DNA of 12,769 nt from a virus: positions 1 through 12,769 of IMG/VR virus record IMGVR_UViG_3300045988_074812. One strand, 5' to 3'. Both the position numbers and the translations under genes were made by a program. Shown here piece by piece: positions 1-12,769 of this stretch (position 1 is its first letter; each line of letters starts with the position of its first letter). The notes beneath the pieces were generated by a model. The model had not been told where the DNA came from and searched no databases. It saw only the letters and a program-made list of their open reading frames with translations.

Positions 1-142
1 AGACAAACCTGTGAACAAATTGTTAACATTTCCCCAATCTGTTCATATTTTGTTCATAATTGCAAAACTGGCATGAATCTTGCTAGGCAACTATAACATT
101 AAATTGTCTGACAATATACCACAAAGTCTGTCACTTATTCTG

Positions 143-171
143 TTGACATATTAGTTCATATGAACTATAAT
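143..171 (+). promoter_or_regulatory. Consensus sigma-A/sigma-70 type early promoter inside left ITR
   Basis: TTGACA (143-148), 17-nt spacer, TATAAT (166-171). Both hexamers match consensus 6/6 with optimal spacing. It faces inward toward the SD-led ATG at 222. Confidence 0.8.
152..167. promoter_or_regulatory. Perfect 16-bp palindrome (candidate operator) in the spacer of the left ITR promoter
   Basis: TAGTTCATATGAACTA is a perfect palindrome. It fills the promoter spacer and overlaps the first two bases of the -10 hexamer, a geometry typical of a dimeric repressor site. The binding protein is unknown. Confidence 0.5.
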
Positions 172-221
172 AGACTTATCAAATGAAACAGCAACAGCCG
201 ACAAGGCGGGAGGGTGAAAAC

Positions 222-410
222 ATGAGAACATTAAAAGAAGTAACAAACGAGGAAATGAATGACATTGCTTCATACATGAATGATGAGCTTAGAGAATCTA
301 TACATTTTGACTTAGCACCTTGCACAAATGAGGAGTTTATCATCGCATATTGCAATGCTGATCCAACTTTTGAAGATCTTCTTAATGAAGAATTTCACAT
401 TGAATTATAG
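222..410 (+). CDS. Small, strongly acidic early protein (62 aa), function unknown; candidate DNA-mimic/anti-defence protein
   Basis: The ORF track gives 183..410. I place the start at ATG 222 because GGAGG (209-213) lies 8 nt upstream. ATG 183 has no SD and sits only a few nt from the predicted TSS. The protein has 16 D/E versus 3 K/R in 62 aa. It is the only convincing plus-strand gene and is followed directly by a strong terminator. Confidence 0.7.
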   Translation: MRTLKEVTNEEMNDIASYMNDELRESIHFDLAPCTNEEFIIAYCNADPTFEDLLNEEFHIEL

Positions 411-416
411 GAGGGT

Positions 417-458
417 AAAAGAGAGATAGCCCAGCGGATGCTGGGCTATCTCTCTTTT
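417..458. terminator. Bidirectional rho-independent terminator between convergent genes
   Basis: Perfect 15-bp stem GAGAGATAGCCCAGC (421-435) / GCTGGGCTATCTCTC (440-454) with 4-nt loop GGAT. It is flanked by AAAA (417-420) and TTTT (455-458), so a U-tract follows the hairpin on either strand. It sits between the 222..410 (+) gene and the last gene of the minus-strand operon. Confidence 0.85.
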
Positions 459-1713
459 ACATCGTAATTGAGCCCCTGTGAATCTGTACCTGTGTAACCT
501 CTGTCAAAGTCCGGTAATTGTGCTTGTCATCTGAGACATCATACAAGCTCAAATAGATATGCCGACCTCTGAAGTTAAGCTGTGCGGGGATATGATAAAA
601 GTCACTGCTAGACTTAACGATCACACTTGTTGGATAGCATGTATAGCCATTGTGATCTCCGATAAAAGAAGTTGAAAAAATACGCCCCAAGCGGTACTCA
701 GTGCCATCACATGTAAGTGTTCCGCTGTTTGGCAGGCAAACATAGTTACCCCAGATCAGAGTACTTGTATTATCATTGTAGGAACTTACAAATTGCCAAC
801 TTGATCCCGGAGTAGGTGCAAAGTCACCTGCTTCAAAATTTGCACTAACTTCATAAAATGATGGACTACACGCCCCTGTTTCTACAGCGGTCGCAAGATA
901 AGTAGCAAGCCTCTCCTGTCCGGTTGTGTTTGGGTGAAATCCATCAGAACCAAGGAACCCATCAGCATGGAGAATATAGTCTGACCCTGTCAGATACCGC
1001 CAATTCTTTCTCTGAGTGTTATAAACACTCTTTGCGATCTTTAGCCTATTTTGCACCATTGGATCATCCGTTCGATCAACGCTCCATGCTACCATGGCAG
1101 AAAATACTTTTGCGTTCGGAAATCTCACTTCTGCTGCTCCCATAAAAGCATTGATTGCATTTTCAATTTCTGAATAAGTTCCGAACTCATTAAATCCACC
1201 TACAACAAGGATCTGTTTGACCTCATCAGATGCTGGCACAGCATTTAAAAGCATAATGAATGAATTAGCAGCTGTTGAGAAAGATGCACCCCCATTTGCG
1301 GAAATGATTACATTATCAAGCCCTGTGTACTTGATAAAGTTTGTAGTCCATGGCTGCACATTACCATCCGGAGTATAACCAACGGTGTAACTGTCTCCGA
1401 TAATGATGGTTTTCCCGGAATGGTCAAAAAGCCCTTCTCTTTTTTGTAACTTTGTGATTTCAGCTGTATTTGTTCCTACTTGCTCTTTTAATGGTTCAAT
1501 CTGTTCGTTGATTACTTTTGTAGTAGCTTCATTTACTACTTTTCCGATCTCTCCATCATCCAGACTTTTCTGGATTGCATCATCAATCATGGTCTGGGCT
1601 GTGTCTTTTATGTGTGTCCATTCCTCATGATCTTTGTTGGCCTGTTTTCCAACTTTAAGCAACCAGTCTAAATTCATATCCTGCATAGAACTATGTGGGT
1701 AGTTAAAAAACAT
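457..1713 (-). CDS. Tail appendage / receptor-binding protein with SGNH (GDSL) esterase domain
   Basis: 418-aa ORF with GGAGG 8 nt before ATG 1713. SGNH blocks are visible: I IIIGDSYTVG (about 1381-1410), II NGGAS, III GGFNEF, V DGFHPNTTG. The N-terminal ~95 aa look helical/coiled-coil and the C-terminal ~140 aa look like a beta-rich, Cys-containing domain. It occupies the phi29 gp12 position, after connector and lower collar. Confidence 0.75.
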   Translation of the reverse strand: MFFNYPHSSMQDMNLDWLLKVGKQANKDHEEWTHIKDTAQTMIDDAIQKSLDDGEIGKVVNEATTKVINEQIEPLKEQVGTNTAEITKLQKREGLFDHSGKTIIIGDSYTVGYTPDGNVQPWTTNFIKYTGLDNVIISANGGASFSTAANSFIMLLNAVPASDEVKQILVVGGFNEFGTYSEIENAINAFMGAAEVRFPNAKVFSAMVAWSVDRTDDPMVQNRLKIAKSVYNTQRKNWRYLTGSDYILHADGFLGSDGFHPNTTGQERLATYLATAVETGACSPSFYEVSANFEAGDFAPTPGSSWQFVSSYNDNTSTLIWGNYVCLPNSGTLTCDGTEYRLGRIFSTSFIGDHNGYTCYPTSVIVKSSSDFYHIPAQLNFRGRHIYLSLYDVSDDKHNYRTLTEVTQVQIHRGSITM

Positions 1714-1726
1714 AATTCATTCCTCC

Positions 1727-2416
1727 TTAATAAATTAATAAAAGCAGATCCTGTGCAAAAAGACCTGTGCAGTAGTCAATAAAGCTTTGTTTTCTCAACT
1801 CAAGCTCCGACTGAATCATATTCTGTGACGTAGTAACTCCAATGTTGCCATGAATATGCCCGATATGCTTATTCTGCCCTGTCTCCCGGCTTGTCTCACC
1901 CTTGCCATACTCAAATGTATTTTTATTCTCACCAGAACTTTGTACTTTTGTACTGCCTCCATACTCTGTAGTTGTTTTTTCATTCGGGGAGTAGTTTGCA
2001 TCATTAAAAGCACTGACATCATTGGTAGCTGTATCTGCCCCAGAGTTGGTCGTAGTGGTTCCCTGTCTTGCTTCTGCCCTGTTTACATCTTGTCCGGAAG
2101 TCTGACTTGTTCGTGTCATGTCCGGGCTGTCTGTCCATTCTTCATGACGGTCATAGTTTTCAATCGGTTCATAATTCGTTAGTTCTAACACATTATAAAC
2201 CTTGTCAATGCTTGTTTTCCATTTCTGGCTCCATGCAGGAATAGCACTTTCATACATAAAATCCCAATCCGGGTATAATGGTTCACAATCCCCATAGGAC
2301 AGAAGCAAGCTATCGATAAAATTCTGCCTGTCTGCTGATTCTGGAAATTCCATTTTATCAAATAAAATGTCATTCCATTCATAAAGCCCTGCTATCGTAA
2401 CCTTATAAAGTGCCAT
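1727..2416 (-). CDS. Putative lower collar / tail tube adaptor protein (phi29 gp11 position)
   Basis: 229-aa ORF with SD GGGGGTGA upstream of ATG 2416 and a 14-nt overlap with the connector gene end. It lies directly downstream of the connector, as gp11 does in phi29. The N-terminal domain contains YEPIENYDRHEEW and the centre is S/T/G/N-rich. Function is assigned by synteny only. Confidence 0.5.
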   Translation of the reverse strand: MALYKVTIAGLYEWNDILFDKMEFPESADRQNFIDSLLLSYGDCEPLYPDWDFMYESAIPAWSQKWKTSIDKVYNVLELTNYEPIENYDRHEEWTDSPDMTRTSQTSGQDVNRAEARQGTTTTNSGADTATNDVSAFNDANYSPNEKTTTEYGGSTKVQSSGENKNTFEYGKGETSRETGQNKHIGHIHGNIGVTTSQNMIQSELELRKQSFIDYCTGLFAQDLLLLIY

Positions 2417-3323
2417 AACTTTTCACCCCCGCAGTTTCATAGTTTCTTATCTTGATTGACAAATTCATTTCCGGATACAGTCTATTTGTCGTGTCAACCC
2501 CTGCTTGCATGGTTTCAAGCCATGTTGTAAGCCGTGTCACGGATTCTGCATCATTTTTGCTTGTTTCAAGCACATTCAGGCGTTCTTTTTTATCAGATCC
2601 AACAGATGGAATACCGACCTCTGTGTCAAACTGATCCAGAAGCTTTTCAAAAACCTCAATCAGCTCTGGTGCAATAAAGTTCTGCTTCAAATCTTTGTTG
2701 AATGTCTCCCAGGCGTCCTGCTTGCTTCCTTGTCTATCTTCTGTTTTTATGGATACATCAAAAGCCTCAACTGGGTTACCAGCCTGTATACTGTCATAAA
2801 TTTTTTTCAACGTCTGAGCTGCTGCTTTGTTTTTCGCAGCAATCAGAAAAGCAAGTTTTGAGTTAAAAATATTCATGTCAAAAGCAGACGCAACAAGTGC
2901 CAGTTTGTAGCTGTAAAAGCCAATGATATCTCCAATCCCACAAAAAGTAGGCCTGAGATAGATGACAGAGCAGTCTTTCCCGATCTCCATATCCTCTATG
3001 TCAATTGTCGCATTGCTTGCATACGTATGTATGCTTGCTGTCGTTGGTTTAAAGTAAATATTGTAGCCTGTCAGCATTGGATACTGAGCAATCAGTCCAT
3101 AAAGATCTGTCTTTGTGATGCAAATATAACCCCCAAAAAGCAGGCAATATTTGAAGTAATCAATATCAATGTTTCCGTTGTATGTTATATCAAGGATAGA
3201 ACACACACGCTCATAAAGCATCCGATCGAACGTATCAGTATATAAGCTGTTAACTTTGATCCCGGATGGCTGGAAGTAATTAGTGCATATGTTTATTTTG
3301 TCAAAATTCATAGGTACCCACAT
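2403..3323 (-). CDS. Portal / upper collar connector protein (phi29 gp10-like)
   Basis: The ORF track gives 2403..3359. I prefer ATG 3323 (MWVPMNF...), which has GGAGG about 10 nt upstream and no overlap with the upstream gene. At about 306 aa it matches phi29 gp10 (about 309 aa). The segment GIPSVGSDKKERLNVLETSKNDAES resembles the gp10 stretch ...[21 protein letters not shown] as I remember it. Synteny is knob-connector-collar-appendage. Confidence 0.7.
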   Translation of the reverse strand: MWVPMNFDKINICTNYFQPSGIKVNSLYTDTFDRMLYERVCSILDITYNGNIDIDYFKYCLLFGGYICITKTDLYGLIAQYPMLTGYNIYFKPTTASIHTYASNATIDIEDMEIGKDCSVIYLRPTFCGIGDIIGFYSYKLALVASAFDMNIFNSKLAFLIAAKNKAAAQTLKKIYDSIQAGNPVEAFDVSIKTEDRQGSKQDAWETFNKDLKQNFIAPELIEVFEKLLDQFDTEVGIPSVGSDKKERLNVLETSKNDAESVTRLTTWLETMQAGVDTTNRLYPEMNLSIKIRNYETAGVKSYGTL

Positions 3324-3339
3324 GTTTTTCATCCCTCCT

Positions 3340-4683
3340 TTATTCAAAATAAAAACCATTATTCAAGTAACTATTCACCTGCTCTTGATCCCCCTCAAAT
3401 CCTGCAATCTGGATAGATGCATTACGGCACTTTACAAACCCACTCAGTGCAGAAATAGACCGGATAGTCCCGTCTATATAACCCTCACTTGTGCCATCTG
3501 GATCTATGCTTGTGCAGGCATAGCAGATACTGTTTGCATCCATGCTGTTGAGTATAGAGGAAATATTGCCAACTGTACCTACCATGTTGGGCTCTGGTGA
3601 AGTCACACTCTGAAAAGCACCTACCGTATTTGTGATAACCCCAATAGGGTTACCGGAAGCAAGGCTTGTGCCAACGTCTATTAAGTTGGTAGTAAGTTGA
3701 CCAATGTTAGTGGTGGCATATCCAATCTGTACCGGAACAGCAAGCTGACATTGAAAGTGAGCGTATTCATCTGTTCCAGAAGTTAGCCAAACATCAGCCA
3801 TGCCTGATACAGCATCAAAGTTATAAGTAGCTTTTAACTGACCCTTATGTGTCTTTGTTGGATTGATAGGGATAACACCCACAAATGGTAATTTGACAGC
3901 GTACTTTGAAAAACTAGCATTGTAATAGCGAAAATCTGTATCAGCATATAAGGGGTTGCCAAGGCTTAAATCATAAGAAAAAGTGCATGTTGCATCATTA
4001 ATTAATGCAGCAGTTACATTGCTGTCCCAGTAGCCAAGCTTGATATTATCGGCAATATTCAAAAATGAGCTTAACCGAAACGGCAGCCATTTTAGATCCA
4101 CGATATACTGAAATGGATTGAAAAGCAAACGTGTAAGTGCTGAGTCGATCACATCTGGGATGGATCCATAAGTGTACATAAATTCCATTAGATCATCTAA
4201 TTGGCTTCCTGTGACATAATAAGTGCTTATCCCATCCACTGAAATAGTCCGCAGCAGATAGTTTCTAGCATATCCATTCACAAATGTATTGATCGGCTGC
4301 CCTACGATCGTGGATTGACTTACCCAGTCATTCGTAGGAATATACATGGAATCATTTGCAAGCGTAGTCTGCTTGCTGGATCTCTCAATGAAACATGTAT
4401 AGTTGCCTATCTCTGTCCGGTAAGTTGCTAACACATCCTCACTCGCTGAAAGCTCAACCATGTCATTATTCAGTGAAACTGTTGAATTAATAAAATAGTA
4501 ATGGTCAGCCCACTTCAAATAGTTGTATTGCAAGGCATTATCTAATGATAATTTTAGCTTAAATACTGGATTTTGAAACGTGGTATTTGATTTTAAAAGA
4601 CAGGGGACGGTTGCCCCCTGTCCTGTCGGTCTTTTTGTACTGTTTTTTCGTTTGGAAAAATGGAATAAGATAATCTCTGTCAT
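3340..4683 (-). CDS. Tail knob / distal tube protein (phi29 gp9-like)
   Basis: The ORF track gives 3340..4725. I prefer ATG 4683, which overlaps the endolysin stop (ATGA), giving 447 aa. It lies immediately upstream of the connector, as gp9 does. The C-terminal GFVKCRNASIQIAGFEGDQEQVNSYLNNGFYFE resembles the remembered gp9 C-terminus ([33 protein letters not shown]). Confidence 0.55.
   Translation of the reverse strand: MTEIILFHFSKRKNSTKRPTGQGATVPCLLKSNTTFQNPVFKLKLSLDNALQYNYLKWADHYYFINSTVSLNNDMVELSASEDVLATYRTEIGNYTCFIERSSKQTTLANDSMYIPTNDWVSQSTIVGQPINTFVNGYARNYLLRTISVDGISTYYVTGSQLDDLMEFMYTYGSIPDVIDSALTRLLFNPFQYIVDLKWLPFRLSSFLNIADNIKLGYWDSNVTAALINDATCTFSYDLSLGNPLYADTDFRYYNASFSKYAVKLPFVGVIPINPTKTHKGQLKATYNFDAVSGMADVWLTSGTDEYAHFQCQLAVPVQIGYATTNIGQLTTNLIDVGTSLASGNPIGVITNTVGAFQSVTSPEPNMVGTVGNISSILNSMDANSICYACTSIDPDGTSEGYIDGTIRSISALSGFVKCRNASIQIAGFEGDQEQVNSYLNNGFYFE
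4591..4622 (-). terminator. Intragenic terminator-like hairpin (possible attenuator) near the 5' end of the tail-knob gene
   Basis: On the minus-strand RNA: GACAGGGGGC-AACC-GUCCCCUGUC (4622..4599). The stem is 10 bp including one G-U pair, with a tetraloop, and is followed by UUUUAAAA (4598..4591). It lies in codons ~21-31 of the tail-knob ORF, just after the lysis genes. Confidence 0.3.
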
Positions 4684-5330
4684 GATAAGTAAATATCTCC
4701 CTTTGCCGTGATTGCACATATCCAACCGGATGGAATCCTAACCCACGTTGCACTGGCTTCATCCTTTTTGACATCTTTTACCGTGACTGTGGTTCCTTTT
4801 TTCAGGCAGCCATCAGAATAAGCATGTTTCATGCCATCCCTTGTCAGCTGTGCATACTCTTTGATCTGGCCCCATATGCTATAACGTACATGTAAGTGAT
4901 CTATCATTGTAGTATAAGTTCCGCCAATTTCATAAGATATACTTTTTTCATCCCATACCCTGCGGATGCAGGATAAGTCAGACCTACGACTTACAAGGCT
5001 TTTGACTACCCCAACCCCAGGATTGTATTGAGTATTTTTTCTGCCACCCCTGCTTTCAATCATATATCCGTATCCTACGAAAATAGCACAATGAGTTACT
5101 GGAGTGCCGAAAAAAAGAAAATCACCTACTTTTTGCTCTCCAATTGGAATCCTTGTTCCAAGCTTTGAATAGCTTGATGCCGTCAGTCTTCCAACATTTG
5201 ACCCTGCTTTTTTCTGGATCCAGTAAAGCAATCCGGAACAGTCAAGTCCCTGTGTGGGGTTTGAACCACCCCACACATATCTAACTCCAAGTAATTCCTT
5301 TGCATTTTCAATAAGTTCGTTCGCTGTCAT
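4680..5330 (-). CDS. Endolysin: NlpC/P60 endopeptidase with C-terminal SH3b-like wall-binding domain
   Basis: 216 aa. The NlpC/P60 signature is YVWGGSNPTQGLDCSGLLYW (catalytic Cys, about 5231-5250) with GDFLFFG...THCAIFVGYGYMIES (His). The C-terminal GTTVTVKDVKKDEASATWVRIPSGWICAI...IYLS fits an SH3b pattern. It lies directly downstream of the holin candidate. Confidence 0.9.
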   Translation of the reverse strand: MTANELIENAKELLGVRYVWGGSNPTQGLDCSGLLYWIQKKAGSNVGRLTASSYSKLGTRIPIGEQKVGDFLFFGTPVTHCAIFVGYGYMIESRGGRKNTQYNPGVGVVKSLVSRRSDLSCIRRVWDEKSISYEIGGTYTTMIDHLHVRYSIWGQIKEYAQLTRDGMKHAYSDGCLKKGTTVTVKDVKKDEASATWVRIPSGWICAITAKGDIYLS

Positions 5331-5337
5331 TTTACAC

Positions 5338-5562
5338 CTACTTTCCTAAGTGTTCAATTAATGAGTTCATTTTTTCAACCGCAAGTGTGTTATTTTTGAT
5401 AACTTCAGAAAGCGTATCAACTTCATTTTTGTGTTCCTCGTTGAGTTTGTCAACTCGTGAATTTGTCTGGTCATATATATACTTTACGAAGTATGCCATG
5501 ACACAGCAGCAAACGATTGGAAAAGCATAGTTGCCTAAAATAGTTAAGAATGTATCCATCAT
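5338..5562 (-). CDS. Putative holin (BhlA/UviB-like architecture)
   Basis: 74 aa with one N-terminal transmembrane segment (FLTILGNYAFPIVCCCVMAYFV) and a charged helical C-terminal tail, as in BhlA/UviB holin-like proteins of Firmicutes. It lies immediately upstream of the endolysin, and its ATGA overlaps the preceding gene. Confidence 0.6.
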   Translation of the reverse strand: MMDTFLTILGNYAFPIVCCCVMAYFVKYIYDQTNSRVDKLNEEHKNEVDTLSEVIKNNTLAVEKMNSLIEHLGK

Positions 5563-5864
5563 GCTGATACCCCCTCTTCAAAATAGTCATTATTAATTGG
5601 GGCAAGAGGCACTGTATCAACTAAAACTGCCCCAAAACCAAATTGAAAAACTGAAAAATTTGATAATTTCGGAAACCCATAATAACTATCAAATTTTAAT
5701 TCTAAACCGTTACTCCTATTAAAGTAAGCGATTACATTTCCATTTAGTTCTAATGTTGAACTTTGCTCTGATGTGCTTGTGCATATAATTCTGCGAACTC
5801 CATAATCACCATTCAGACTAAAAACCTGCCCTTGTTCATCTGCCTGCATGTTGAAAAAAAACAT
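5559..5864 (-). CDS. Hypothetical protein in the head module (101 aa)
   Basis: ATG 5864 overlaps the capsid gene stop (TAATG), with GGAGG 7 nt upstream. No motif recognised. Its position after the capsid gene allows a decoration or minor head protein, but that is a guess. Confidence 0.6.
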   Translation of the reverse strand: MFFFNMQADEQGQVFSLNGDYGVRRIICTSTSEQSSTLELNGNVIAYFNRSNGLELKFDSYYGFPKLSNFSVFQFGFGAVLVDTVPLAPINNDYFEEGVSA

Positions 5865-7410: not shown

Positions 7411-7430
7411 TTTTTCTATCTCCTTTTCTG

Positions 7431-7519
7431 CCGGAAGTGAAAAATTAAAATAGGTCAACGCTTCCGGGTTATCATCCCACGGCATCCGCTTCCGGCGGTC
7501 GATGTAGCCACGTTGACCT
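7431..7519 (-). promoter_or_regulatory. GC-rich structured leader candidate upstream of the scaffold/capsid genes
   Basis: There is a 9-bp inverted repeat AGGTCAACG (7452-7460) / CGTTGACCT (7511-7519). CGCTTCCGG is a direct repeat (7459-7467 and 7487-7495). CCGGAAG (7431-7437) is complementary to both CTTCCGG copies. The core 7452-7519 is 41/68 G+C in an AT-rich genome. The arm order on the mRNA is compatible with an H-type pseudoknot just 5' of the SD. Confidence 0.35.
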
Positions 7520-7525: not shown

Positions 7526-7554
7526 AATATATAATTTTTAAAATAGTTTGTCAA
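7526..7554 (-). promoter_or_regulatory. Near-consensus internal promoter (candidate late/structural promoter)
   Basis: On the minus strand: TTGACA (7554..7549), 17-nt spacer, TATATT (7531..7526; 5/6 to TATAAT). It lies in the last codons of the ATPase gene. The predicted TSS is about 7518-7519, exactly at the first arm of the GC-rich repeat element. Confidence 0.5.
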
Positions 7555-8584
7555 TATAGAATTTTACAGAAATATTCTGGTAGCTGATTCTATTTGTCAG
7601 ACGATAGCTGTCAATCCAGCTATAAAAGCATCTAAACTGATCTTTGCCATGCTGACTATCTTCAAATACATCCTTGCAGGATCCCGATATATGATCCGAA
7701 ACATACAAGTGTGCTTTTGACTTGTGTTCGTAAATAGCCACTTTTCCAATCACACAAATAAGCTTGTATTGGCGTATATCTTCTGATCGGATAGCAGAAA
7801 CATCATCATATGCAAATTCATTTGATAAAGCCATCTTTGCAAAGTCAGTATTGCCCGATAATGCACGATACAAAGCAGTATCTTTTTTCTTTTCTGAAAT
7901 CGGGGAATCATTAATGAGAACCAAGATGATTCCTCTCTCTTTTAGCATGGAAAACTCCTGCTTATTCTTTTTCATTCGCTCCAAGATTGGCAGCAGTCCG
8001 AAAGCTTGCACAATTGCATTATCTAAGGTGTTGGAGTTGGAAGCAAGCCACCAGCGGAATGGCTTCTTTCCCTGCAACTCCCTATTTGCTGAGATTGTTT
8101 CAACAGCATTTAAAAAAGCATCATCCTCCCCACTGATTGACTTAGCAATCTTTTCCGGAATAAATTCATCATAAATCCCCTCCGAAAAATCAGATCCGGA
8201 GAAACCACGGTTGTTATGCATTGAGGTGAGACAGAATGCCTCACCCCTATAAACTTCTTCATCCTCTGTTTGCTCCATGATCTTAATCCGTCCATACTCA
8301 CCTCTGGGCTTTTCAAAATGAAAAAACCTGTTCAGATCTTTATTTATGTCCAGCCATGGATCAAACTCCGGAAGAAATACTTTTGTCAGCTGCTCTTTTG
8401 TACGCCTCATATAGATGATCTTCTCATTTTTGGAAAAAACATCATTGATGAAGTGCTGGAATATTCCATACGTTTTCCCAGTTCTACGCGCTCCAATGAT
8501 GAAAATAAAGTTAATTTTATTTTTATCGGCAAGCTGGACGATCCTTGGAACATCCAGCCAACCATTTATATCATAGATGTTCAT
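7538..8584 (-). CDS. DNA encapsidation (packaging) ATPase, phi29 gp16-type
   Basis: The ORF track gives 7538..8632. I prefer ATG 8584 (MNIYDINGW...), which has GGTGGA 8 nt upstream and forms a TAATG overlap with the preceding stop, giving 348 aa. Walker A is IIGARRTGKT (about 8471-8494) and Walker B is GIYDEFIPEK. NFIFIIGARRTGKTYG...EKIIYMRRTKEQL parallels remembered gp16 NFVIGARGIGKSYA...EQFIYVRRYKPEL. There is no terminase nuclease domain. Confidence 0.9.
   Translation of the reverse strand: MNIYDINGWLDVPRIVQLADKNKINFIFIIGARRTGKTYGIFQHFINDVFSKNEKIIYMRRTKEQLTKVFLPEFDPWLDINKDLNRFFHFEKPRGEYGRIKIMEQTEDEEVYRGEAFCLTSMHNNRGFSGSDFSEGIYDEFIPEKIAKSISGEDDAFLNAVETISANRELQGKKPFRWWLASNSNTLDNAIVQAFGLLPILERMKKNKQEFSMLKERGIILVLINDSPISEKKKDTALYRALSGNTDFAKMALSNEFAYDDVSAIRSEDIRQYKLICVIGKVAIYEHKSKAHLYVSDHISGSCKDVFEDSQHGKDQFRCFYSWIDSYRLTNRISYQNISVKFYIDKLF
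7587..7614 (-). promoter_or_regulatory. Second promoter-like element upstream of the first
   Basis: On the minus strand: TTGACA (7614..7609), 16-nt spacer, TAGAAT (7592..7587; 5/6). It lies about 60 bp upstream of the 7554 element, inside the ATPase 3' end. Confidence 0.3.
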
Positions 8585-8883
8585 TATTGAAATCCACCCC
8601 CATAGGATGTCGGCTGCGAATTCTGATTGCATTCATTGTATTTTTTGATGCAAGCATCCTGCAAAAGCTTAGTCCATTCCTTATCAACTATATAAATGGA
8701 ATTATAGTATTTACCATCTTTTCCTTTTTTACTTGGGTATGACAGGAAAAGACCCTCTTTTCCCTCAACCAGCGTAAGCCCTTTAATTACAAGTGTTCCA
8801 TCCAGTTCCAGATCAACAAAAGCTTTTGTTTTTGAGTTTCCATTATAAGGTTTGCATGTGATTTTTACATTTGATTTTAACAT
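8584..8883 (-). CDS. SpoVG-family nucleic-acid-binding protein homologue
   Basis: 99 aa with GGAG upstream of ATG 8883. KAFVDLELDGTLVIKGLTLVEGKEGLFLSYPSKKGKDGKY aligns by eye with B. subtilis SpoVG [40 protein letters not shown]. This includes the GLF-x3-PSK-x3-DG signature, and the overall length is similar. Confidence 0.8.
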   Translation of the reverse strand: MLKSNVKITCKPYNGNSKTKAFVDLELDGTLVIKGLTLVEGKEGLFLSYPSKKGKDGKYYNSIYIVDKEWTKLLQDACIKKYNECNQNSQPTSYGGGFQ

Positions 8884-8884: not shown

Positions 8885-9022
8885 TTAGTTTATCTCCTTT
8901 ACATCAATTCTAATAATTTTCCCCACCTTGTAAGCTACGATACTAATTTCATCATCCTCGTATGTTACTTTTCGCAGGCTGCTTGTTCGCAATGTTTCAT
9001 AGATCTCTGACATATCAATCAA
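8885..9022 (-). CDS. Small hypothetical protein (about 45 aa)
   Basis: The ORF track gives 8885..9085. GGAGG (9035..9031) lies 8 nt upstream of TTG 9022, followed by ATG 9013. The longer version has no SD and overlaps the 37-aa ORF. No motif recognised. Confidence 0.5.
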   Translation of the reverse strand: MIDMSEIYETLRTSSLRKVTYEDDEISIVAYKVGKIIRIDVKEIN

Positions 9023-9035
9023 TTTTCTCACCTCC

Positions 9036-9149
9036 TTAATCACCCAACAATAACCATACTTGACAGGTTGCAAACATGCAAGCAAAAGTGATGCAAGTCC
9101 AGAAAAGGGTGCTTAAATCTTCTTTGTTATCATTCCAGAACTTTTTCAT
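9036..9149 (-). CDS. 37-aa single-pass membrane microprotein (not in the supplied ORF track)
   Basis: My manual translation of the minus strand from ATG 9149 gives MKKFWNDNKEDLSTLFWTCITFACMFATCQVWLLLGD, ending at TAA 9038..9036. GGAGG (9165..9161) lies 8 nt upstream. The protein has a charged N-terminus and a ~22-aa hydrophobic segment. Its stop overlaps the SD of the next gene. Confidence 0.55.
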   Translation of the reverse strand: MKKFWNDNKEDLSTLFWTCITFACMFATCQVWLLLGD

Positions 9150-9213: not shown

Positions 9214-9219
9214 TTTATT

Positions 9220-11343
9220 CTAACTATATACGGTGTCTTCCATCTCAAAAGGCAGTGGTAATCCTGTTTCTTTATCATAAGGAATCGTGTGATCCAGCTC
9301 ATATTCTGTATCACTCAAGCGGATAGCACAGCCATATTCAATCCTGCATCCATCTATAACAATTTCATTAATTCCATCATTGAATAGATACTCTGTTTTC
9401 ATCTTCCATTTTGGATCCTGCCAATCATTCACCCTGCGGTAGTTCCTGCGGAACGTCAAGTCATTTTTGAAAATAAATCCTTTTCTAAAATTGGTTATAT
9501 CATCGTTAAGACAATAAATCCCCTCTTTTGGAACACCAGCAACTGTCAGATGCAAGCTTGCATCTTTTTTCAGTCGGTAGCAATACCGCTTGCTACCCAT
9601 CGTTTTAAATTCTGAATATAATCCATCAAACTCAGCAATTCCCAACCGGAAAGTTTTTTCCTTATACTCTACTACACCGATTTTTCTTTTTTCTGACATT
9701 TCAATTACAGACTGATTAAACTCATTCAGTTTATCATGATCCCAGTCTGTACCTTTTACAGAATCTGTGTCTGAGTATAACCACACCCGGCAGCAGGAAC
9801 CCAGCCGGAAAAGATAAGCTTGTGCATAAGCTGTAATCCATACTCCCCACTGGTACGGCATGAAGCTGTTTTTGTTCCGGTAGAACTTTTCAAGCTCTTT
9901 TTCCCTGTCCTCTGGTTCTTTTGCCTCCCACTCTCCGGATTCCATCAACTCAGTACATAAGATCTGGATGATACGCTGCACAGTCATTCCATACATTCCA
10001 TTAAGCTCCCCTTTTGAGATCATGTAGTTTGCTTCATCCAAATCCTTTAATGTGCATTTTTTAAAAAACAATTCCATCAAATAGCCTGTGAACCACTCCG
10101 GCAAGTAGTCTTTTGTAGCTCTCATGACCTTTGACACATCCGCCCAGTCATAATCATAGCTTGACAGGATTACATCTAAATCTGGATCCGTAAATGGATA
10201 GATGACAAGATCAGCGTTGACGATCTTTCCATTATCCAAATTGTCATAAAACTGTTCCTTTTTGCTTTTAGCTTCGGGAAAAACACAAACTTTTGCTTTT
10301 GAAAAAGCCAGCGGTGGCATGGGGCAGTCTTTTTTCAGTCTCAGATTCTTTAATCTGATATAGCCAGAAAAAGCATAATCATCTTTTAATTCCATAATGT
10401 CTTTTAATGTTATATTATTTGTATAACAAAAATTCGACATTGGAAACTTACAATAGCACATCCATGCAATATATGAACTTGTAAAGTCATAACACTCAAC
10501 AGGGTCTTTTATTAATTGATTCACATAATACCTGTTTGCATGGGTGTAGCCACCATGATAACAGTCAAGCATCTGATCATACTGCTCTAAGGTCAGAGCC
10601 ATTTTCTCAAATTGCTTTCTCCATTTCTTGTCTTTTCTTGCTCTCCTGCGGGCGTTCGTCCGGATAAATCCCGTATTGGTCAGCGGACAGTTCGCCACGT
10701 TAAATCCTCGCTGATCTATGTATTTGCGTAATGCCTTGCATAGACTGATTGTATCCGTACAGACATAGGCTATTTCTTTTGCTGTACGTGAACTTGCTGG
10801 CGTTCGGAATTTCTTATAGTCCCATGTGCCGACTGCTTTTTCAGTCGTTCCCATGTCTTTGCACAGTTTCTCTAATGATCGCTGTGTCAAGATAAGGCTG
10901 TCCCGAAATTCAACTCCTTGCCCTGTCCATTTCATGAAGATATACTTATGAGTTTTACTAGCAAGTGATTTGTCTGGCATTCCCCATTTTCGGAAAAAGT
11001 GATTACGAAGAAATACATAGTCATATGGAAAGTTATGCACATAAAAGCGTACAAGGTGGCTATCGTCAGCATGTAAAGTTGTGCAAATCCTGTCGATCGT
11101 ATCAATCAGATCAGAAACATGGTTGCCATAAATACAGCAATCATCCTCTATCGTGATTGTCCAATCCGTGACAAAGCCAATGTTTTTGTTAAGATAGACA
11201 AAAGTCTCCGTATCAACAGTTATAATTTTTTCATAAACTCCTAAATAATGCCCTGCATTGGATCGCCGGATAAAATCACCATTGAACAGTCGCATATAAT
11301 CGTAGTTCTTAAAATAAATAACTGAATATCCTGAGACTACCAT
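9220..11343 (-). CDS. Family-B DNA polymerase, protein-primed type (phi29 gp2-like)
   Basis: 707 aa with GGAGG 6 nt before ATG 11343. Exonuclease motifs: ExoI TVDTETF (about 11201-11220), ExoII HNFPYDYVF, ExoIII YVCTDTISL. Polymerase motifs: A YDFTSSYIAWM (compare phi29 DVNSLYPAQM), B KGELNGMYGM, C LYSDTDSVKG (about 9762-9779), and KxY in GSKRYCY. The long A-to-B spacing is consistent with a TPR1-type insertion. Confidence 0.95.
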   Translation of the reverse strand: MVVSGYSVIYFKNYDYMRLFNGDFIRRSNAGHYLGVYEKIITVDTETFVYLNKNIGFVTDWTITIEDDCCIYGNHVSDLIDTIDRICTTLHADDSHLVRFYVHNFPYDYVFLRNHFFRKWGMPDKSLASKTHKYIFMKWTGQGVEFRDSLILTQRSLEKLCKDMGTTEKAVGTWDYKKFRTPASSRTAKEIAYVCTDTISLCKALRKYIDQRGFNVANCPLTNTGFIRTNARRRARKDKKWRKQFEKMALTLEQYDQMLDCYHGGYTHANRYYVNQLIKDPVECYDFTSSYIAWMCYCKFPMSNFCYTNNITLKDIMELKDDYAFSGYIRLKNLRLKKDCPMPPLAFSKAKVCVFPEAKSKKEQFYDNLDNGKIVNADLVIYPFTDPDLDVILSSYDYDWADVSKVMRATKDYLPEWFTGYLMELFFKKCTLKDLDEANYMISKGELNGMYGMTVQRIIQILCTELMESGEWEAKEPEDREKELEKFYRNKNSFMPYQWGVWITAYAQAYLFRLGSCCRVWLYSDTDSVKGTDWDHDKLNEFNQSVIEMSEKRKIGVVEYKEKTFRLGIAEFDGLYSEFKTMGSKRYCYRLKKDASLHLTVAGVPKEGIYCLNDDITNFRKGFIFKNDLTFRRNYRRVNDWQDPKWKMKTEYLFNDGINEIVIDGCRIEYGCAIRLSDTEYELDHTIPYDKETGLPLPFEMEDTVYS

Positions 11344-11353
11344 GAGTTACCTC

Positions 11354-11977
11354 CTAATATGGTCTATACTTCAAAGCTTCTGATTCACCAGAGAACCCAA
11401 GCCGTTTAGCTATGACATCAGCCATTTCTTCGTCTGTACGCTCACGGAATTGCTCTAAATCCTCTATTATCTTTTTTACTGTAGAAGTATCAAGTTTATG
11501 ACTGATGATTCGCATTGTTTGCTTACTATCGTAGAATAATTGCATCCACTTCCAGACCTCAGACTTAAAAAATAACTTCATTTCCTCTTTTGATTTGAAA
11601 TTAATTCCATATTCTCTGCTGAGGGTCTTTTGGCGTTGATCTATGATCTCATGCCAGCCCTGCACAGTGCTGCTCTTTTCTTTCAGCACTTTTTGTATGG
11701 CCTTAACCTGAGTTCTAGGCAGACCTTTATATTTTTCATTATCCAGATTTTCCGGTATCGTTGATCGTCCTGGAAAAAATCTTGCAAGCAAATCTTGATA
11801 GTCTGCATAAGCTCCTCCAACTTCTGAATCAAAACCTTTTGCTTTTAACCTACGCATACGCTGATTCAGACGTTTTGCAAGTTGTCTGCGGAGCTGTAAA
11901 GCTTCCAGAGTAGTTAGCATTTTTGGGTTGACGTTCAACCCTTTTGACGTGGTTGGTATTTTAGGATTCTTTGGCAT
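11354..11977 (-). CDS. Candidate terminal protein (207 aa)
   Basis: It lies immediately upstream of, and co-oriented with, the protein-primed polymerase, as gp3-gp2 do in phi29. SD AGGGGGTGA precedes ATG 11977. The basic helical N-terminus (LQLRRQLAKRLNQRMRRLKAKGFD) recalls the phi29 TP N-terminal region (ARLVKNTKAKIARTKKKYGVD, from memory). The assignment is positional, with no verified homology. Confidence 0.5.
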   Translation of the reverse strand: MPKNPKIPTTSKGLNVNPKMLTTLEALQLRRQLAKRLNQRMRRLKAKGFDSEVGGAYADYQDLLARFFPGRSTIPENLDNEKYKGLPRTQVKAIQKVLKEKSSTVQGWHEIIDQRQKTLSREYGINFKSKEEMKLFFKSEVWKWMQLFYDSKQTMRIISHKLDTSTVKKIIEDLEQFRERTDEEMADVIAKRLGFSGESEALKYRPY

Positions 11978-12335
11978 TATATATCACCCCCTTCATATAC
12001 TCATAAATGCTATCGTATTCCCTAGTTGTTACGCGAAAATCTAATTCTGGTTTTTTAATGATCAAATAAAGATTCTCACATAGAACTCTTGCATCGTTAA
12101 TAGTATCATGAACATGAAATGAGGCAATAAAACGATTTGTTTCAACATTTATTAGAGACTTTGAACGATTGTACATTGTTTTTCGTGCAAGTCTCCTTAT
12201 GACGATTATTACTTCTGGATAGTTTAATTCTATCATGTCTGACCTGTCAAGATCTGGACTAGATTTCTTAAGAATCACTACAGGGGCTTTTACCCCGGTA
12301 TTTGTGTATTTAATTTTTGTATATTTTGATTTCAT
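11961..12335 (-). CDS. Hypothetical early protein (124 aa, basic N-terminus)
   Basis: SD GAGGAGG lies 8 nt before ATG 12335, which abuts the stop of the upstream gene. The 3' end overlaps the next gene by 17 nt. No motif recognised. Confidence 0.7.
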   Translation of the reverse strand: MKSKYTKIKYTNTGVKAPVVILKKSSPDLDRSDMIELNYPEVIIVIRRLARKTMYNRSKSLINVETNRFIASFHVHDTINDARVLCENLYLIIKKPELDFRVTTREYDSIYEYMKGVIYNAKES

Positions 12336-12548
12336 TTACTGGTCCTCCTCAAAATCAATGTTATTATTTCTTTCAATACAGTCTATTGAGTTAATTTTGC
12401 TACCGTCAAAAACACTAGGTACTGGATTATCAAACGGAATAGCTTTGCATGTTTGGTAAACCTTGTCATCTTTCAAAATCATGCTTAATGCTTTAACCGA
12501 CATGCTGTTCCCGTTTTTGTAATTGATTTTATAAGTATTGTCTTTCAT
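12336..12548 (-). CDS. Hypothetical early protein (70 aa), first gene of the long minus-strand operon
   Basis: The ORF track gives 12336..12587. The preferred start, ATG 12548..12546, uses the ITR-borne GGAGG, mirroring the left end. Only the start codon and one further base lie inside the ITR. Confidence 0.7.
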   Translation of the reverse strand: MKDNTYKINYKNGNSMSVKALSMILKDDKVYQTCKAIPFDNPVPSVFDGSKINSIDCIERNNNIDFEEDQ

Positions 12549-12598
12549 GTTTTCACCCTCCCGCCTTGTCGGCTGTTGCTGTTTCATTTGATAAGTCT

Positions 12599-12627
12599 AT
12601 TATAGTTCATATGAACTAATATGTCAA
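12599..12627 (-). promoter_or_regulatory. Consensus early promoter inside right ITR (mirror of 143-171)
   Basis: On the minus strand: TTGACA (12627..12622), 17 nt, TATAAT (12604..12599). It is identical to the left copy and heads the operon that runs from 12548 to 457. Confidence 0.8.
12603..12618. promoter_or_regulatory. Perfect 16-bp palindrome (candidate operator) in the right ITR promoter
   Basis: TAGTTCATATGAACTA, the mirror copy of 152-167. Confidence 0.5.
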
Positions 12628-12769
12628 CAGAATAAGTGACAGACTTTGTGGTATATTGTCAGACAATTTAATGTTATAGTTGCCTAGCAAGATTCATGCC
12701 AGTTTTGCAATTATGAACAAAATATGAACAGATTGGGGAAATGTTAACAATTTGTTCACAGGTTTGTCT

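What the first reader, a model, noticed from the sequence alone, without database searches (positions are those of the whole stretch)
1..12769. The window looks like a complete ~12.8-kb protein-primed mini-podovirus genome
Inverted (not direct) repeats sit exactly at both window ends. The interior encodes every module a phi29-type virion and replicon needs, in only 18 genes:
- replication: PolB and a candidate terminal protein;
- packaging: a gp16-type ATPase without a nuclease domain;
- head: scaffold and capsid;
- tail: connector, collar, knob and appendage;
- lysis: holin and lysin.
phi29 is about 19.3 kb, and the smallest cultured tailed phages are about 11-12 kb (e.g. Mycoplasma phage P1). 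This genome would therefore sit near the lower size limit for tailed dsDNA viruses. The layout also differs from phi29. All genes but one are on one strand, the ATPase precedes the head genes, and the lysis cassette sits between the head and tail genes.
Basis: partly seen in the sequence, partly recalled or inferred. Interest (0 to 1): 0.8.

Follow-up and report, generated by a model that had tools for sequence, protein, structure and literature searches.

The report
Small phi29-like gut phage genome
The window is an almost complete 12.8-kb genome of a common, uncultured human-gut relative of phage phi29; the genome type is already catalogued, but it holds a small, strongly conserved folded RNA next to the DNA-packaging gene that may be a miniature version of phi29's packaging RNA.

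Summary
A perfect 225-nt inverted repeat lies at both ends. There are 18 ORFs, 17 on one strand. PolB, gp16-type ATPase, phi29-type capsid, connector and NlpC/P60 lysin all pass Pfam cut-offs. The tail knob is supported by fold search, and the lower collar weakly by profile.

The genome is not quite complete. Twenty-five contig ends of relatives start 10 nt further out, at AAACTTGGCA, one of them fused to an Illumina adapter. The inferred genome is about 12,789 bp.

It is not novel as a kind:
- about 60 IMG/VR contigs are 83-88% identical;
- GenBank MT836115 is 88% identical and is listed as phi29-like (MCP cluster 12) in a 2024 review;
- cultured relatives of 10.4-12.3 kb exist;
- Amedibacillus phage AD70P3 shares the replication, packaging, head and tail gene order.

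Protein priming is inferred, not shown.

Two things are new. Each ITR carries a promoter, RBS and start codon that drive hypervariable terminal genes, one of them AcrIC5-like. A 68-nt three-way-junction RNA at 7452-7519 (minus strand), just downstream of the ATPase gene, has heavy covariation and a co-varying loop-loop pairing. Its layout matches the core of phi29 pRNA, but Rfam does not recognise it.

The parts
1..225 (.). Left inverted terminal repeat. It is truncated; the true end lies 10 nt further out, at AAACTTGGCA. It probably holds the replication origin. GTTCA/TGAAC motifs are enriched here.
12545..12769 (.). Right inverted terminal repeat, truncated in the same way as the left one.
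143..171 (+). ITR promoter, TTGACA-17-TATAAT (12 of 12 consensus positions). A 14-bp palindrome, AGTTCATATGAACT, sits in its spacer. SD GGGAGGG at 208-214 and ATG at 222 follow. The mirror copy at 12599-12627 (minus strand) drives the long operon.
222..410 (+). Small acidic early gene of the AcrIC5 anti-CRISPR family (62 aa from ATG 222; 75 aa from ATG 183).
415..460 (.). Perfect 21-bp hairpin between the convergent genes; probably a bidirectional terminator.
457..1713 (-). 418-aa tail appendage or receptor-binding candidate with an SGNH/GDSL hydrolase domain. It occupies the position of phi29 gp12.
1727..2416 (-). 229-aa lower collar candidate (gp11-like).
2403..3359 (-). Head-tail connector (gp10 family). 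The start is probably at 3323, giving 306 aa.
3340..4725 (-). Tail knob (gp9-like). The start is probably at 4683, giving 447 aa.
4680..5330 (-). NlpC/P60 peptidoglycan endopeptidase with an uncharacterised C-terminal half; the lysin.
5338..5562 (-). 74-aa holin candidate with one N-terminal hydrophobic segment.
5559..5864 (-). 101-aa protein of unknown function, in the position of phi29 gp8.5.
5864..7060 (-). Major capsid protein of the phi29 type.
7075..7410 (-). Scaffold candidate, about 111 aa from ATG 7410. The ORF extension up to 7554 is probably not coding.
7452..7519 (-). 68-nt three-way-junction RNA. It has helices P1, P1b, P2 (loop CGGAA) and P3. A loop-loop pairing joins 7500-7503 and 7471-7474. 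Its own promoter is TTGACA 7549-7554 and TATATT 7526-7531. A U-rich tract lies at 7440-7451.
7538..8632 (-). gp16-type packaging ATPase. The start is probably at 8584, giving 348 aa. There is no separate large-terminase nuclease domain.
8584..8883 (-). SpoVG-family protein of 99 aa; a presumed DNA- or RNA-binding protein.
8885..9085 (-). Small ORF of 45-66 aa; function unknown.
9036..9149 (-). 37-aa hydrophobic ORF with a strong SD; the 18th gene.
9220..11343 (-). Family-B DNA polymerase of the protein-primed type. It has Exo I-III, motifs A, B and C, KxY, and regions that align with phi29 TPR1 and TPR2.
11354..11977 (-). 207-aa terminal-protein candidate: basic and all-helical, always directly upstream of PolB. 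Its family carries the motifs NxRLxRLE and K-[ST]-S-T-x-x-G.
11961..12335 (-). 124-aa early protein of unknown function, conserved in 50 related contigs.
12336..12587 (-). Variable first gene of the long operon: 70 aa from ATG 12548, or 83 aa from 12587.

Best explanation
The window is the near-full-length linear dsDNA genome of an uncultured human-gut podovirus of the phi29-like assemblage. The inferred true length is about 12,789 bp, because 10 nt are missing at each end. It belongs to MCP cluster 12 of Evseev et al. 2024 and is a distant relative of Amedibacillus phages AD70P2/P3.

**Replication (inferred).** The 207-aa protein encoded just upstream of PolB primes DNA synthesis at the 3' ends of the roughly 235-bp ITRs, and the TPR1/TPR2-bearing PolB extends it. 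The 5'-AAA terminus is the kind of terminal reiteration that allows sliding-back.

**Transcription (read from the sequence).** A consensus sigma-70 promoter in each ITR fires inward. The left one expresses a single AcrIC5-like gene that ends at a bidirectional hairpin terminator. The right one expresses the long operon in this order: early genes, TP, PolB, small proteins, SpoVG-like protein, ATPase. A second promoter overlaps the end of the ATPase gene. Its transcript starts with a 68-nt structured RNA and continues into scaffold, capsid, lysis and tail genes.

**Packaging (inferred).** Unit-length, TP-capped DNA is packaged by a gp16-type ATPase docked on a gp10-type connector. This needs no nuclease.

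**Host.** Unknown. It is probably a Gram-positive gut bacterium.
For: **ITR and true ends**
- The ITR is 225 nt and 100% complementary.
- The ITR is also present in independently assembled relatives from other samples, and their two arms share substitutions.
- 25 of 42 relatives' contig ends begin at the same nucleotide, AAACTTGGCAAG.
- Only two contig ends carry sequence beyond that point. One (L014) has an Illumina adapter tail fused to the end. The other (L018) has 44 unrelated nt that were not examined.
- In about 60 contigs the ITR promoter is always within 210 nt of a contig end and points inward. None is permuted.

**Hallmark genes**
- PolB PF03175.
- PolB profile against phi29 gp2: probability 100%, E=4e-63, with the exonuclease and polymerase motifs and the TPR1/TPR2 regions aligned.
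- gp16 ATPase, Phi29_MCP and connector all pass Pfam cut-offs.
- Iterated searches link these families to phi29 gp16, gp8 and gp10.
- Tail knob by Foldseek.
- gp11-like collar, weakly.

**Terminal-protein candidate**
- Its family occupies the same position upstream of PolB in HM2, AD70P3, astrithr and gut contigs.

**Relatives and context**
- The same phage was assembled independently in ENA.
- The close relative MT836115 is listed as phi29-like in published Table S1.
- Promoters and terminator.
- The lysin's nearest cultured-phage matches all come from Gram-positive hosts.
Against: - No direct evidence exists for a covalently bound terminal protein.
- The TP candidate shows no detectable similarity to phi29 gp3. 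Its AF2 model is unusable at pLDDT 50. This lack of similarity is expected, because TP similarity is reported not to extend beyond Salasmaviridae (PMC11476376).
- Scaffold, appendage and holin are assigned by position or by weak hits only.
- The host is not identified. Scans of 185,579 species genomes with the lysin and the MCP found nothing.
- The missing 10 nt are inferred from relatives, not from reads of this sample.
Confidence: 0.9

Rival explanations
1. The 68-nt RNA (7452-7519, minus strand) is a miniature prohead or packaging RNA. It would bridge the gp10-type connector and the gp16-type ATPase, and would multimerise through pairing between its internal loop and its hairpin loop, as phi29 pRNA does. 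This is an addition to the best explanation rather than a replacement for it.
For: **Same order of elements as the phi29 pRNA core.**
- Both have a helix formed by the 5' and 3' ends.
- One arm has an internal loop and a capped hairpin.
- A second hairpin has a loop complementary to that internal loop (PMC5066667).

**The loop-loop pairing co-varies in every lineage examined.**
- Window clade: AUCG/UGAU and AUCA/UGAU.
- L060 clade: ACCA/UGGU.
- AD70P3: UCC/GGA.
- L066: GUCG/CGAC.
- HM2: GUAGU/ACUAC.
- L064 clade: six different 8-bp combinations.

**Formal pair counts.**
- In A9, 99.8% of cells are paired. 15 of 23 pairs change on both sides, including 6 of 8 in the loop-loop helix. No shuffle out of 500 reaches this, and slid controls give 40-57%.
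- In A7, 99.4% of cells are paired, 8 pairs change on both sides, and no shuffle out of 500 reaches this.

**Genomic context.**
- The RNA always lies directly after the gp16-type ATPase gene and has its own promoter. This holds even in a sublineage where the ATPase sits near the genome end and the next gene looks like a lysin.
- Known pRNAs show the same 3-4-nt co-varying loop pairing (PMC12670572).
Against: - Rfam's pRNA model detects phi29 pRNA at 145 bits but finds nothing in this window or in four relatives.
- The terminal helix is 9 bp, against about 26 bp for the ATPase-binding A-helix of phi29.
- The RNA is 68 nt, against 117-174 nt for known pRNAs.
- An 8-bp loop pairing in the sister clade could equally be an intramolecular pseudoknot.
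- The element sits at the 5' end of the late transcript, as a regulatory leader would.
- No expression or binding data exist.
- No such element was seen after the ATPase gene in astrithr or L065.
Confidence: 0.45
2. The RNA element is a cis-acting leader, attenuator or terminator. It would end early transcription after the ATPase gene, or control read-through and translation of the late genes (scaffold and capsid). It would not be a trans-acting packaging RNA.
For: - It lies between a promoter and the first late gene.
- In the window clade, P1 is followed by UAUUUUAAUUUUU, as in an intrinsic terminator.
- The segment just upstream of the SD (CUUCCGG) is complementary to the invariant CCGGAAG of P2, which suggests alternative pairings.
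- The sister clade has an extra variable hairpin abutting the SD.
Against: - The U-tract is weak or absent in most other lineages (L064, L067, L068, HM2), while the junction and the loop pairing are kept.
- A simple terminator does not need a co-varying three-way junction with a pseudoknot.
- The downstream gene changes between lineages, but the linkage to the ATPase gene does not.
Confidence: 0.35
3. The terminal inverted repeat is an assembly artefact (a fold-back or a duplicated end). The real genome would then be circular, circularly permuted, or flanked by direct repeats.
For: - De Bruijn assemblers collapse and mirror repeated ends, so a perfectly symmetrical ITR, truncated identically on both sides, is an expected assembler output.
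- No reads were available for this sample.
Against: - At least 12 independently assembled relatives carry the ITR at both ends, with different unique genes next to each arm.
- The arms show concerted substitutions.
- The end point is fixed in 25 contig ends, and one end is ligated to an adapter.
- No contig has an internal ITR or a permuted order.
- Both arms continue into intact, different ORFs from the shared ATG.
Confidence: 0.03
4. The element is not a virulent phage. It would be a linear plasmid, a phage-plasmid or a satellite that happens to carry phi29-like genes.
For: Some phi29-related sequences in databases are phage-plasmids with partition and toxin-antitoxin genes (PMC11476376).
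Against: - No partition, toxin-antitoxin, integrase or repressor family was detected in any ORF.
- A full virion, packaging and lysis gene set is present.
- Neither the lysin nor the MCP was found in 185,579 bacterial and archaeal species genomes.
Confidence: 0.03

Closest known systems
GenBank MT836115.1 ('Bacteriophage sp.', human faeces, Mexico, 12,876 bp), about 55 closely related IMG/VR contigs (MCP 91-99% identical), and MCP cluster 12 / terminase cluster 9 of Evseev et al. 2024 (PMC11476376)
   Same: - The best relatives are 83-88% identical at nucleotide level over 77-96% of the genome.
- Gene order, ITR, promoters and RNA element are the same.
- PolB is 95.5% and MCP 92.7% identical to MT836115.
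   Different: - Identity is below the 95% species level.
- The genes under the two ITR promoters differ between members.
- MT836115 is unannotated and truncated at both ends.
Amedibacillus phages AD70P2/AD70P3 (cultured; 12.2-12.3 kb; filed under Guelinviridae by NCBI)
   Same: - The order TP candidate, PolB, small genes, ATPase, promoter plus structured RNA, scaffold-like gene, MCP, knob, connector, collar, fibre is the same.
- Eight protein families are shared.
- Genome size is similar.
   Different: - PolB is only about 31% and MCP about 29% identical.
- AD70P3 has no holin and lysin cassette between head and tail.
- GC is 27% against 40%.
- The deposited record has no ITR.
Bacillus phage phi29 (Salasmaviridae)
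   Same: - PolB with TPR1/TPR2, a TP-position gene upstream of PolB, gp16-type ATPase, the MCP fold family, the connector and the knob.
- The structural block is collinear with phi29 genes 7 to 12.
- The terminus is 5'-AAA.
   Different: - The genome is 12.8 kb against 19.3 kb.
- The ITR is about 235 bp against 6 bp.
- Almost all genes are on one strand.
- The ATPase lies before the head genes and the lysis genes lie mid-operon.
- There are no gp4, gp5, gp6 or gp17 homologues.
- There is no RF00044 pRNA; a 68-nt RNA with a similar layout takes its place.
Astrithrvirus (Salmonella phages astrithr, Astrid and assan) and relatives infecting Gram-negative bacteria (Phanie, DU_PP_III, Vibrio K58 g2)
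   Same: - Mini-genomes of 10.4-11.9 kb.
- The PolB, TP-position protein, ATPase, MCP, knob and connector families are shared at 22-30% identity.
- They have a short ITR.
   Different: - The connector precedes the capsid gene.
- There is no intergenic RNA element after the ATPase gene.
- The hosts are Gram-negative.
- The ITR is 18 nt.
phi29 prohead RNA (Rfam RF00044)
   Same: - A three-way junction.
- A helix formed by the 5' and 3' ends.
- An internal loop on one arm that is complementary to the hairpin loop of the other arm, with covariation.
- It is encoded by a phage with a gp16-type ATPase and a gp10-type connector (PMC5066667; PMC12670572).
   Different: - It is 68 nt against 117-174 nt.
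- The terminal helix is 9 bp.
- There is no sequence or covariance-model similarity.
- The gene lies next to the ATPase gene and upstream of the late genes, not at the genome end.
- Its function is untested.

Membership tests
phi29-like (protein-primed) podoviruses, hallmark set of Evseev et al. 2024 | Family-B DNA polymerase of the protein-primed type, with TPR1 and TPR2 insertions | tested here: met
   PF03175 at 39 bits against a cut-off of 25.8. hhalign against phi29 gp2 gives probability 100% and E=4e-63 over 479 columns. Exo II, Exo III, motifs A, B and C, KxY and the TPR1/TPR2 regions all align.
phi29-like (protein-primed) podoviruses, hallmark set of Evseev et al. 2024 | gp16-type packaging ATPase, phi29-type MCP and gp10-type connector | tested here: met
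   PF05894 at 58.8 bits, PF25622 at 56.1 bits and PF05352 at 51.1 bits all exceed their cut-offs. Iterated searches reach phi29 gp16, gp8 and gp10.
phi29-like (protein-primed) podoviruses, hallmark set of Evseev et al. 2024 | gp9-type tail knob | tested here: met
   Foldseek's top nine PDB hits are the phi29 gp9, C1 gp12 and Andhra knobs, with E from 5e-5 to 0.02. The model is confident only for residues 1-100 and 410-447, so this is a domain-level match.
phi29-like (protein-primed) podoviruses, hallmark set of Evseev et al. 2024 | gp11-type lower collar | tested here: inconclusive
   The best PDB profile hit is phi29 gp11 (6qz9) at E=0.018. hhalign gives probability 80% over 29 columns. The gene sits in the right syntenic position.
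phi29-like (protein-primed) podoviruses, hallmark set of Evseev et al. 2024 | Linear genome with inverted terminal repeats and fixed ends | tested here: met
phi29-like (protein-primed) podoviruses, hallmark set of Evseev et al. 2024 | Terminal protein covalently bound to the 5' ends | not testable with these tools
   Only a syntenic candidate gene is available. It shows no similarity to phi29 gp3.
Salasmaviridae | Close proteome relatedness to phi29 and an RF00044 pRNA | tested here: not met
   There is no nucleotide match. PolB is 22% identical to phi29 gp2 in the hhalign alignment. There is no RF00044 hit, although the phi29 control scores 145 bits.
Guelinviridae (where NCBI files the nearest cultured relatives) | Monophyly and shared gene content with the Clostridium phages of the family | not tested
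   No phylogeny was run. The published clustering places the Amedibacillus phages apart from the Clostridium Guelinviridae. The window shares only about 30% identity with AD70P3.
MCP cluster 12 / terminase cluster 9 of Evseev et al. 2024 | MCP clusters with the listed members | tested here: met
   MT836115 is listed as a member. Its MCP is 92.7% identical to the window's.
Prohead RNA (pRNA, RF00044) | Match to the family covariance model | tested here: not met
Prohead RNA (pRNA, RF00044) | Three-way junction with complementary, co-varying CE-type and D-type loops | tested here: met
Prohead RNA (pRNA, RF00044) | Binds the prohead connector and docks the ATPase; required for packaging | not testable with these tools
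   An experiment is needed.
AcrIC5 anti-CRISPR family (PF22147) | Profile match above the gathering score | tested here: met
   The window protein scores 36.6 bits against a cut-off of 27. A divergent homologue from L043 scores 37.5 bits. Inhibition of type I-C CRISPR-Cas was not tested.

The most novel reading that the evidence does not exclude
The 68-nt three-way-junction RNA just downstream of the ATPase gene (7452-7519, minus strand) is a miniature prohead or packaging RNA. Homologous RNAs lie at the same place in AD70P3, Clostridium phage HM2 and several gut clades.

If so, pRNA-dependent packaging is not confined to Bacillus Salasmaviridae. It would be ancestral to, or widespread in, phi29-like phages, in a form half the known size.

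A second, smaller novelty is that the ITRs act as plug-in expression cassettes (promoter, RBS and ATG) for interchangeable anti-defence genes.
Probability: 0.45. Interest if true: 0.8.

Novelty: new member of a known kind. Interest (0 to 1): 0.4.

Why it matters
As a genome, it adds one more species-level member to an abundant and already catalogued clade of very small phi29-like gut phages. Its use is as a clean reference with defined ends and annotation, not as a new kind of virus.

The added value lies in two features.

1. **The structured RNA.** A strongly co-varying RNA sits next to the packaging ATPase gene and has the layout of the pRNA core. pRNA is considered unique to Bacillus phi29-like phages, and its origin is debated. 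A half-size relative in distant lineages would make that question testable, and it would give a new minimal self-assembling RNA scaffold.

2. **The ITRs.** They carry complete expression signals in front of hypervariable terminal genes, one of them an AcrIC5 homologue. This points to the genome ends as an exchangeable anti-defence locus.

Tried and rejected
**Searches and models that gave nothing usable**
- AF2 model of the TP candidate: pLDDT 50, so it was not used for a fold search.
- Sequence and profile searches of the TP, PolB and knob against PDB sequences: no meaningful hits for the TP or the knob.
- Host search by scanning 185,579 species genomes with the lysin and the MCP: nothing found.
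- Lysin against cultured phages: it indicates only Gram-positive hosts.
- pRNA search with Rfam: negative.
- Folding of the ITR and of the gap after PolB: z-scores from +0.9 to -1.8, so no structure signal.

**Attempts to extend the RNA analysis**
- Model R1, built from the window clade, finds only close relatives.
- A joint MAFFT alignment of all RNA lineages mis-registers, so no general model was built.
- The AD70P3 ATPase scan found only AD70P3 itself, and the L066 ATPase scan found nothing.

**Readings considered and dropped**
- Hammerhead-like or other ribozyme: there is no conserved junction core and no Rfam hit.
- The 159-aa reading of the scaffold ORF: its homologues are 91-123 aa, and the upstream part is the RNA element.

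Full report
**1. Observation**

The window ends in a perfect inverted repeat. Arms 1-225 and 12545-12769 are 100% complementary.

ORF listing and translation give 16 minus-strand ORFs of at least 45 aa and one plus-strand ORF (183/222-410). A 37-aa ORF with a strong AGGAGG Shine-Dalgarno lies at 9036-9149.

An independent gene call on an ENA assembly of the same phage (ERZ27274212, 12,623 nt) finds the same set. It also picks shorter, more plausible starts for several genes.

No tRNA was found. GC is about 40%.

**2. Gene content**

Pfam matches above the curated cut-offs:

| Family | Window coordinates |
|---|---|
| PolB PF03175 | 9220-11343 |
| SpoVG | 8584-8883 |
| Podovirus_Gp16 ATPase | 7538-8584/8632 |
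| Phi29_MCP | 5864-7060 |
| NlpC/P60 | 4680-5330 |
| Phage_connector (gp10) | 2403-3359 |
| AcrIC5 | 222-410 |

The 418-aa protein at 457-1713 matches the GDSL/SGNH family below the cut-off. PHROGs agrees with these assignments.

I built protein families from about 70 related genomes.
- The PolB family aligns to phi29 gp2 with probability 100% and E=4e-63. Exo II, Exo III, motifs A, B and C, KxY and the TPR1 and TPR2 regions are all in register.
- The ATPase, MCP and connector families reach phi29 gp16, gp8 and gp10.

The 447/461-aa protein is a tail knob. Its AF2 model is confident only at the N- and C-termini. Even so, its nine best PDB fold matches are all knobs: phi29 gp9, C1 gp12 and Andhra.

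The 229-aa protein is probably the lower collar. Its best PDB profile hit is phi29 gp11 at E=0.018, and hhalign gives probability 80%.

The structural genes run in the phi29 order 7-8-8.5-9-10-11-12. Scaffold, appendage and holin rest on position and weak hits only.

**3. Terminal protein**

The 207-aa protein directly upstream of PolB belongs to a family found in the same position in Clostridium phage HM2, AD70P3, astrithr (gp02) and several gut contigs. The family carries the conserved motifs NxRLxRLE and K-[ST]-S-T-x-x-G.

It has no detectable similarity to phi29 gp3. Its AF2 model was too poor to use. The literature reports that TP similarity does not extend beyond Salasmaviridae (PMC11476376), so this negative result carries little weight. 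Protein priming therefore remains an inference from the PolB type, the ITR, the fixed ends and the synteny.

**4. Are the ends real, and is the genome complete?**

An MCP scan of IMG/VR returned 59 contigs of 11-13.8 kb. Fifty-six have MCPs 91-99% identical to the window's, and three have MCPs 61% identical. The near-full-length ones among them are 83-88% identical to the window at nucleotide level over 77-96% of it.

- Among the contig ends that reach the terminal conserved block, 25 of 42 begin at exactly the same nucleotide, AAACTTGGCAAG.
- Only two contig ends carry sequence beyond that point. L014 has the Illumina adapter tail CTTCCGATCT fused directly to AAAC. L018 has 44 unrelated nt, probably a chimeric join, which I did not examine.
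- The window starts at AGACAAACC, 10 nt inside that terminus, on both sides. The true genome is therefore about 12,789 bp with an ITR of about 235 bp.

Symmetrical truncation is what an assembler does with a collapsed ITR. The ENA copy is truncated symmetrically by a further 73 nt. The window's own ends therefore prove little. The relatives do.

- The ITR is present at both ends of at least 12 independent contigs.
- The two arms of MT836115 share substitutions relative to the window, which shows concerted evolution.
- The ITR promoter is never internal in any contig.

This excludes a fold-back artefact, and also a circular or permuted genome, for practical purposes. The terminal 5'-AAA matches phi29's AAAGTA. 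It is the kind of terminal reiteration that sliding-back initiation uses, according to established knowledge of phi29 replication.

**5. What the ITR contains**

The only two 12/12 sigma-70 consensus promoters in the window are the ITR copies at 143-171 and 12599-12627. A GGGAGGG Shine-Dalgarno and an ATG (222-224) follow. Homology between the two arms stops one base after that ATG. Each ITR is therefore a complete expression cassette pointing inward.

The gene behind it is hypervariable among relatives. At least six unrelated small-protein families occur there. Some occur at either end. Some relatives carry the same gene at both ends, which lengthens their ITR to 334-700+ nt.

In the window, the left cassette drives a 62-aa acidic protein of the AcrIC5 family. 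A divergent homologue in L043 also matches that family. AcrIC5 homologues are known in gut Firmicutes and Actinobacteria (PMC7913775). A perfect 21-bp hairpin at 415-460 separates this gene from the convergent long operon.

The motif GTTCA/TGAAC occurs five times per ITR, against 0.31 per 225 nt elsewhere in the genome. A 14-bp palindrome occupies the promoter spacer. Together these suggest binding sites for a phage protein.

**6. Novelty of the genome**

- GenBank MT836115.1 (unannotated, human faeces) is 88.3% identical over 96% of the window.
- MT836115 is listed in Table S1 of Evseev et al. 2024 as a phi29-like sequence, in MCP cluster 12 and terminase cluster 9.
- That review states that all cluster representatives encode relatives of p2, p8, p9, p10, p11 and p16.
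- Cultured relatives with about 25-32% identical PolB and MCP are equally small or smaller: AD70P2/P3 at 12.2-12.3 kb, astrithr-like phages at 11.1-11.9 kb, and Vibrio K58 g2 at 10.4 kb.
- AD70P3 has the same gene order, apart from the lysis cassette.

The genome is therefore a new species-level member of a known kind. Its size and layout are not exceptional within that kind.

**7. An unexpected RNA**

The ORF read as a 159-aa scaffold is really about 111 aa. Its homologues are 91-123 aa, and Prodigal aa.

The 127 nt between the ATPase stop (7538) and ATG 7410 hold the following:
- a promoter, TTGACA 7549-7554, 17 nt, TATATT 7526-7531;
- from about 7519, a 68-nt RNA;
- a U-rich tract.

RNAalifold on 23 sequences of the window clade gives a three-way junction:
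- P1, 9 bp, formed by the 5' and 3' ends;
- an arm made of P1b, an 8-nt internal loop, and P2 capped by CGGAA;
- a second hairpin, P3.

Seven of its 19 pairs show compensatory changes.

Adding a 4-bp pairing between the internal loop (AUCG) and the P3 loop (UGAU) gives 99.4% paired cells and 8 pairs with double changes. No shuffle out of 500 reaches this, and slid controls give 25-44%.

Single-sequence folding gives the same topology in AD70P3, L066, L068 and L060, and a longer version in HM2. In each case the element follows a promoter just after the ATPase gene.

A sister clade of 80 contigs was found with the L064 ATPase. It gives the strongest evidence:
- 99.8% of cells are paired;
- 15 of 23 pairs have double changes;
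- the loop-loop helix is 8 bp, with 6 of 8 pairs compensatory across six sequence combinations;
- no shuffle out of 500 reaches this, and slid controls give 40-57%.

This loop-loop helix crosses P1b. It is therefore either a pseudoknot or an intermolecular kissing contact.

**8. What the RNA might be**

The order of elements is the same as in the phi29 pRNA core. That core runs A helix, then C helix with the CE internal loop (AACC) and the E hairpin, then the junction, then the D hairpin with loop UGGUU (PMC5066667). In pRNA, the CE and D loops pair between molecules and co-vary among phages (PMC12670572).

Known pRNAs are all from Bacillus phages, and pRNA is described as unique to them.

Points against homology or an equivalent function:
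- Rfam's pRNA model finds phi29's pRNA at 145 bits but finds nothing here or in four relatives.
- The terminal helix is only 9 bp.
- The RNA sits at the 5' end of the late transcript, where a leader or attenuator would sit.
- In the window clade it is followed by a terminator-like U-tract.
- A segment near the SD is complementary to P2.

Points for a link with the packaging motor:
- The RNA stays attached to the 3' end of the ATPase gene even where the downstream gene is different.
- The U-tract is not conserved, while the junction and the loop pairing are.

I put a packaging-RNA role at about 0.45 and a cis-regulatory leader at about 0.35. The existence of a conserved structured RNA is about 0.95.

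**9. Host**

The host is not identified. The lysin's nearest cultured-phage matches are all from Gram-positive hosts: Clostridioides, Bacillus, Actinomyces and Streptomyces. The review suggests Actinomycetia for the cluster-12 representative, on the basis of its lysin. Scans of species-representative genomes found nothing.

**10. Verdict**

The claims of completeness, extreme size and unusual layout are overstated, and the genome type is already catalogued. Interest in the genome itself is low, about 0.2. The ATPase-linked three-way-junction RNA and the ITR expression cassettes raise the overall interest to about 0.4.

Noticed in passing
window 7452-7519 (minus); promoter 7526-7554; also L002 about 6280-6360, L069 about 6120-6220, and L072-L151 just after the ATPase gene: A conserved 68-nt three-way-junction RNA with a co-varying loop-loop pairing lies just downstream of the gp16-type ATPase gene. 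It is absent from Rfam. Its layout matches the phi29 pRNA core.
   Followed up: yes
window 222-410 (+): The only plus-strand gene encodes a 62-aa acidic protein that matches the AcrIC5 anti-CRISPR family above Pfam's cut-off. It is driven by the left ITR promoter.
   Followed up: partly
window 143-224 and 12546-12627; ends of L001-L062: The ITR holds a promoter, SD and ATG, and homology between the arms stops right after the ATG. The first gene behind each ITR is hypervariable among relatives, with at least six families. Some families occur at either end or at both. One relative has a PAPS-reductase-domain gene there.
   Followed up: partly
window 11-57 and 153-166 (mirrored in the right ITR): GTTCA/TGAAC occurs five times per ITR, about 16-fold more often than in the interior. 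The 14-bp palindrome AGTTCATATGAACT fills the spacer of the ITR promoter. These are possible operator or origin-binding sites.
   Followed up: partly
window 9036-9149 (minus): A 37-aa hydrophobic ORF with a strong SD lies between PolB and the SpoVG-like gene. The ENA gene caller also called it.
   Followed up: no
window 11354-11977 (minus), residues 101-107: The TP-candidate family has a conserved K-[ST]-S-T-x-x-G motif. This is a speculative site for the priming Ser or Thr.
   Followed up: no
L014, right end: The IMG/VR contig keeps an Illumina adapter tail (CTTCCGATCT) fused to the phage terminus AAACTTGG. This is direct evidence of a physical DNA end.
   Followed up: yes
L127-L151: In one sublineage of the sister clade, the ATPase gene lies about 1.3 kb from the contig end. 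The gene after the RNA looks like a peptidase-M15-type lysin. Gene order is therefore rearranged, but the link between ATPase and RNA is kept.
   Followed up: partly
L002 (OP172639.1) and L003 (NC_048862.1): The GenBank record of cultured AD70P3 has no terminal inverted repeat, so its ends are probably incomplete. Astrithr has only an 18-nt ITR.
   Followed up: no
window 7428-7434 versus 7484-7490 (minus strand): CUUCCGG, just upstream of the scaffold SD, is complementary to the invariant CCGGAAG of the RNA's P2 hairpin. This is a possible alternative pairing.
   Followed up: no
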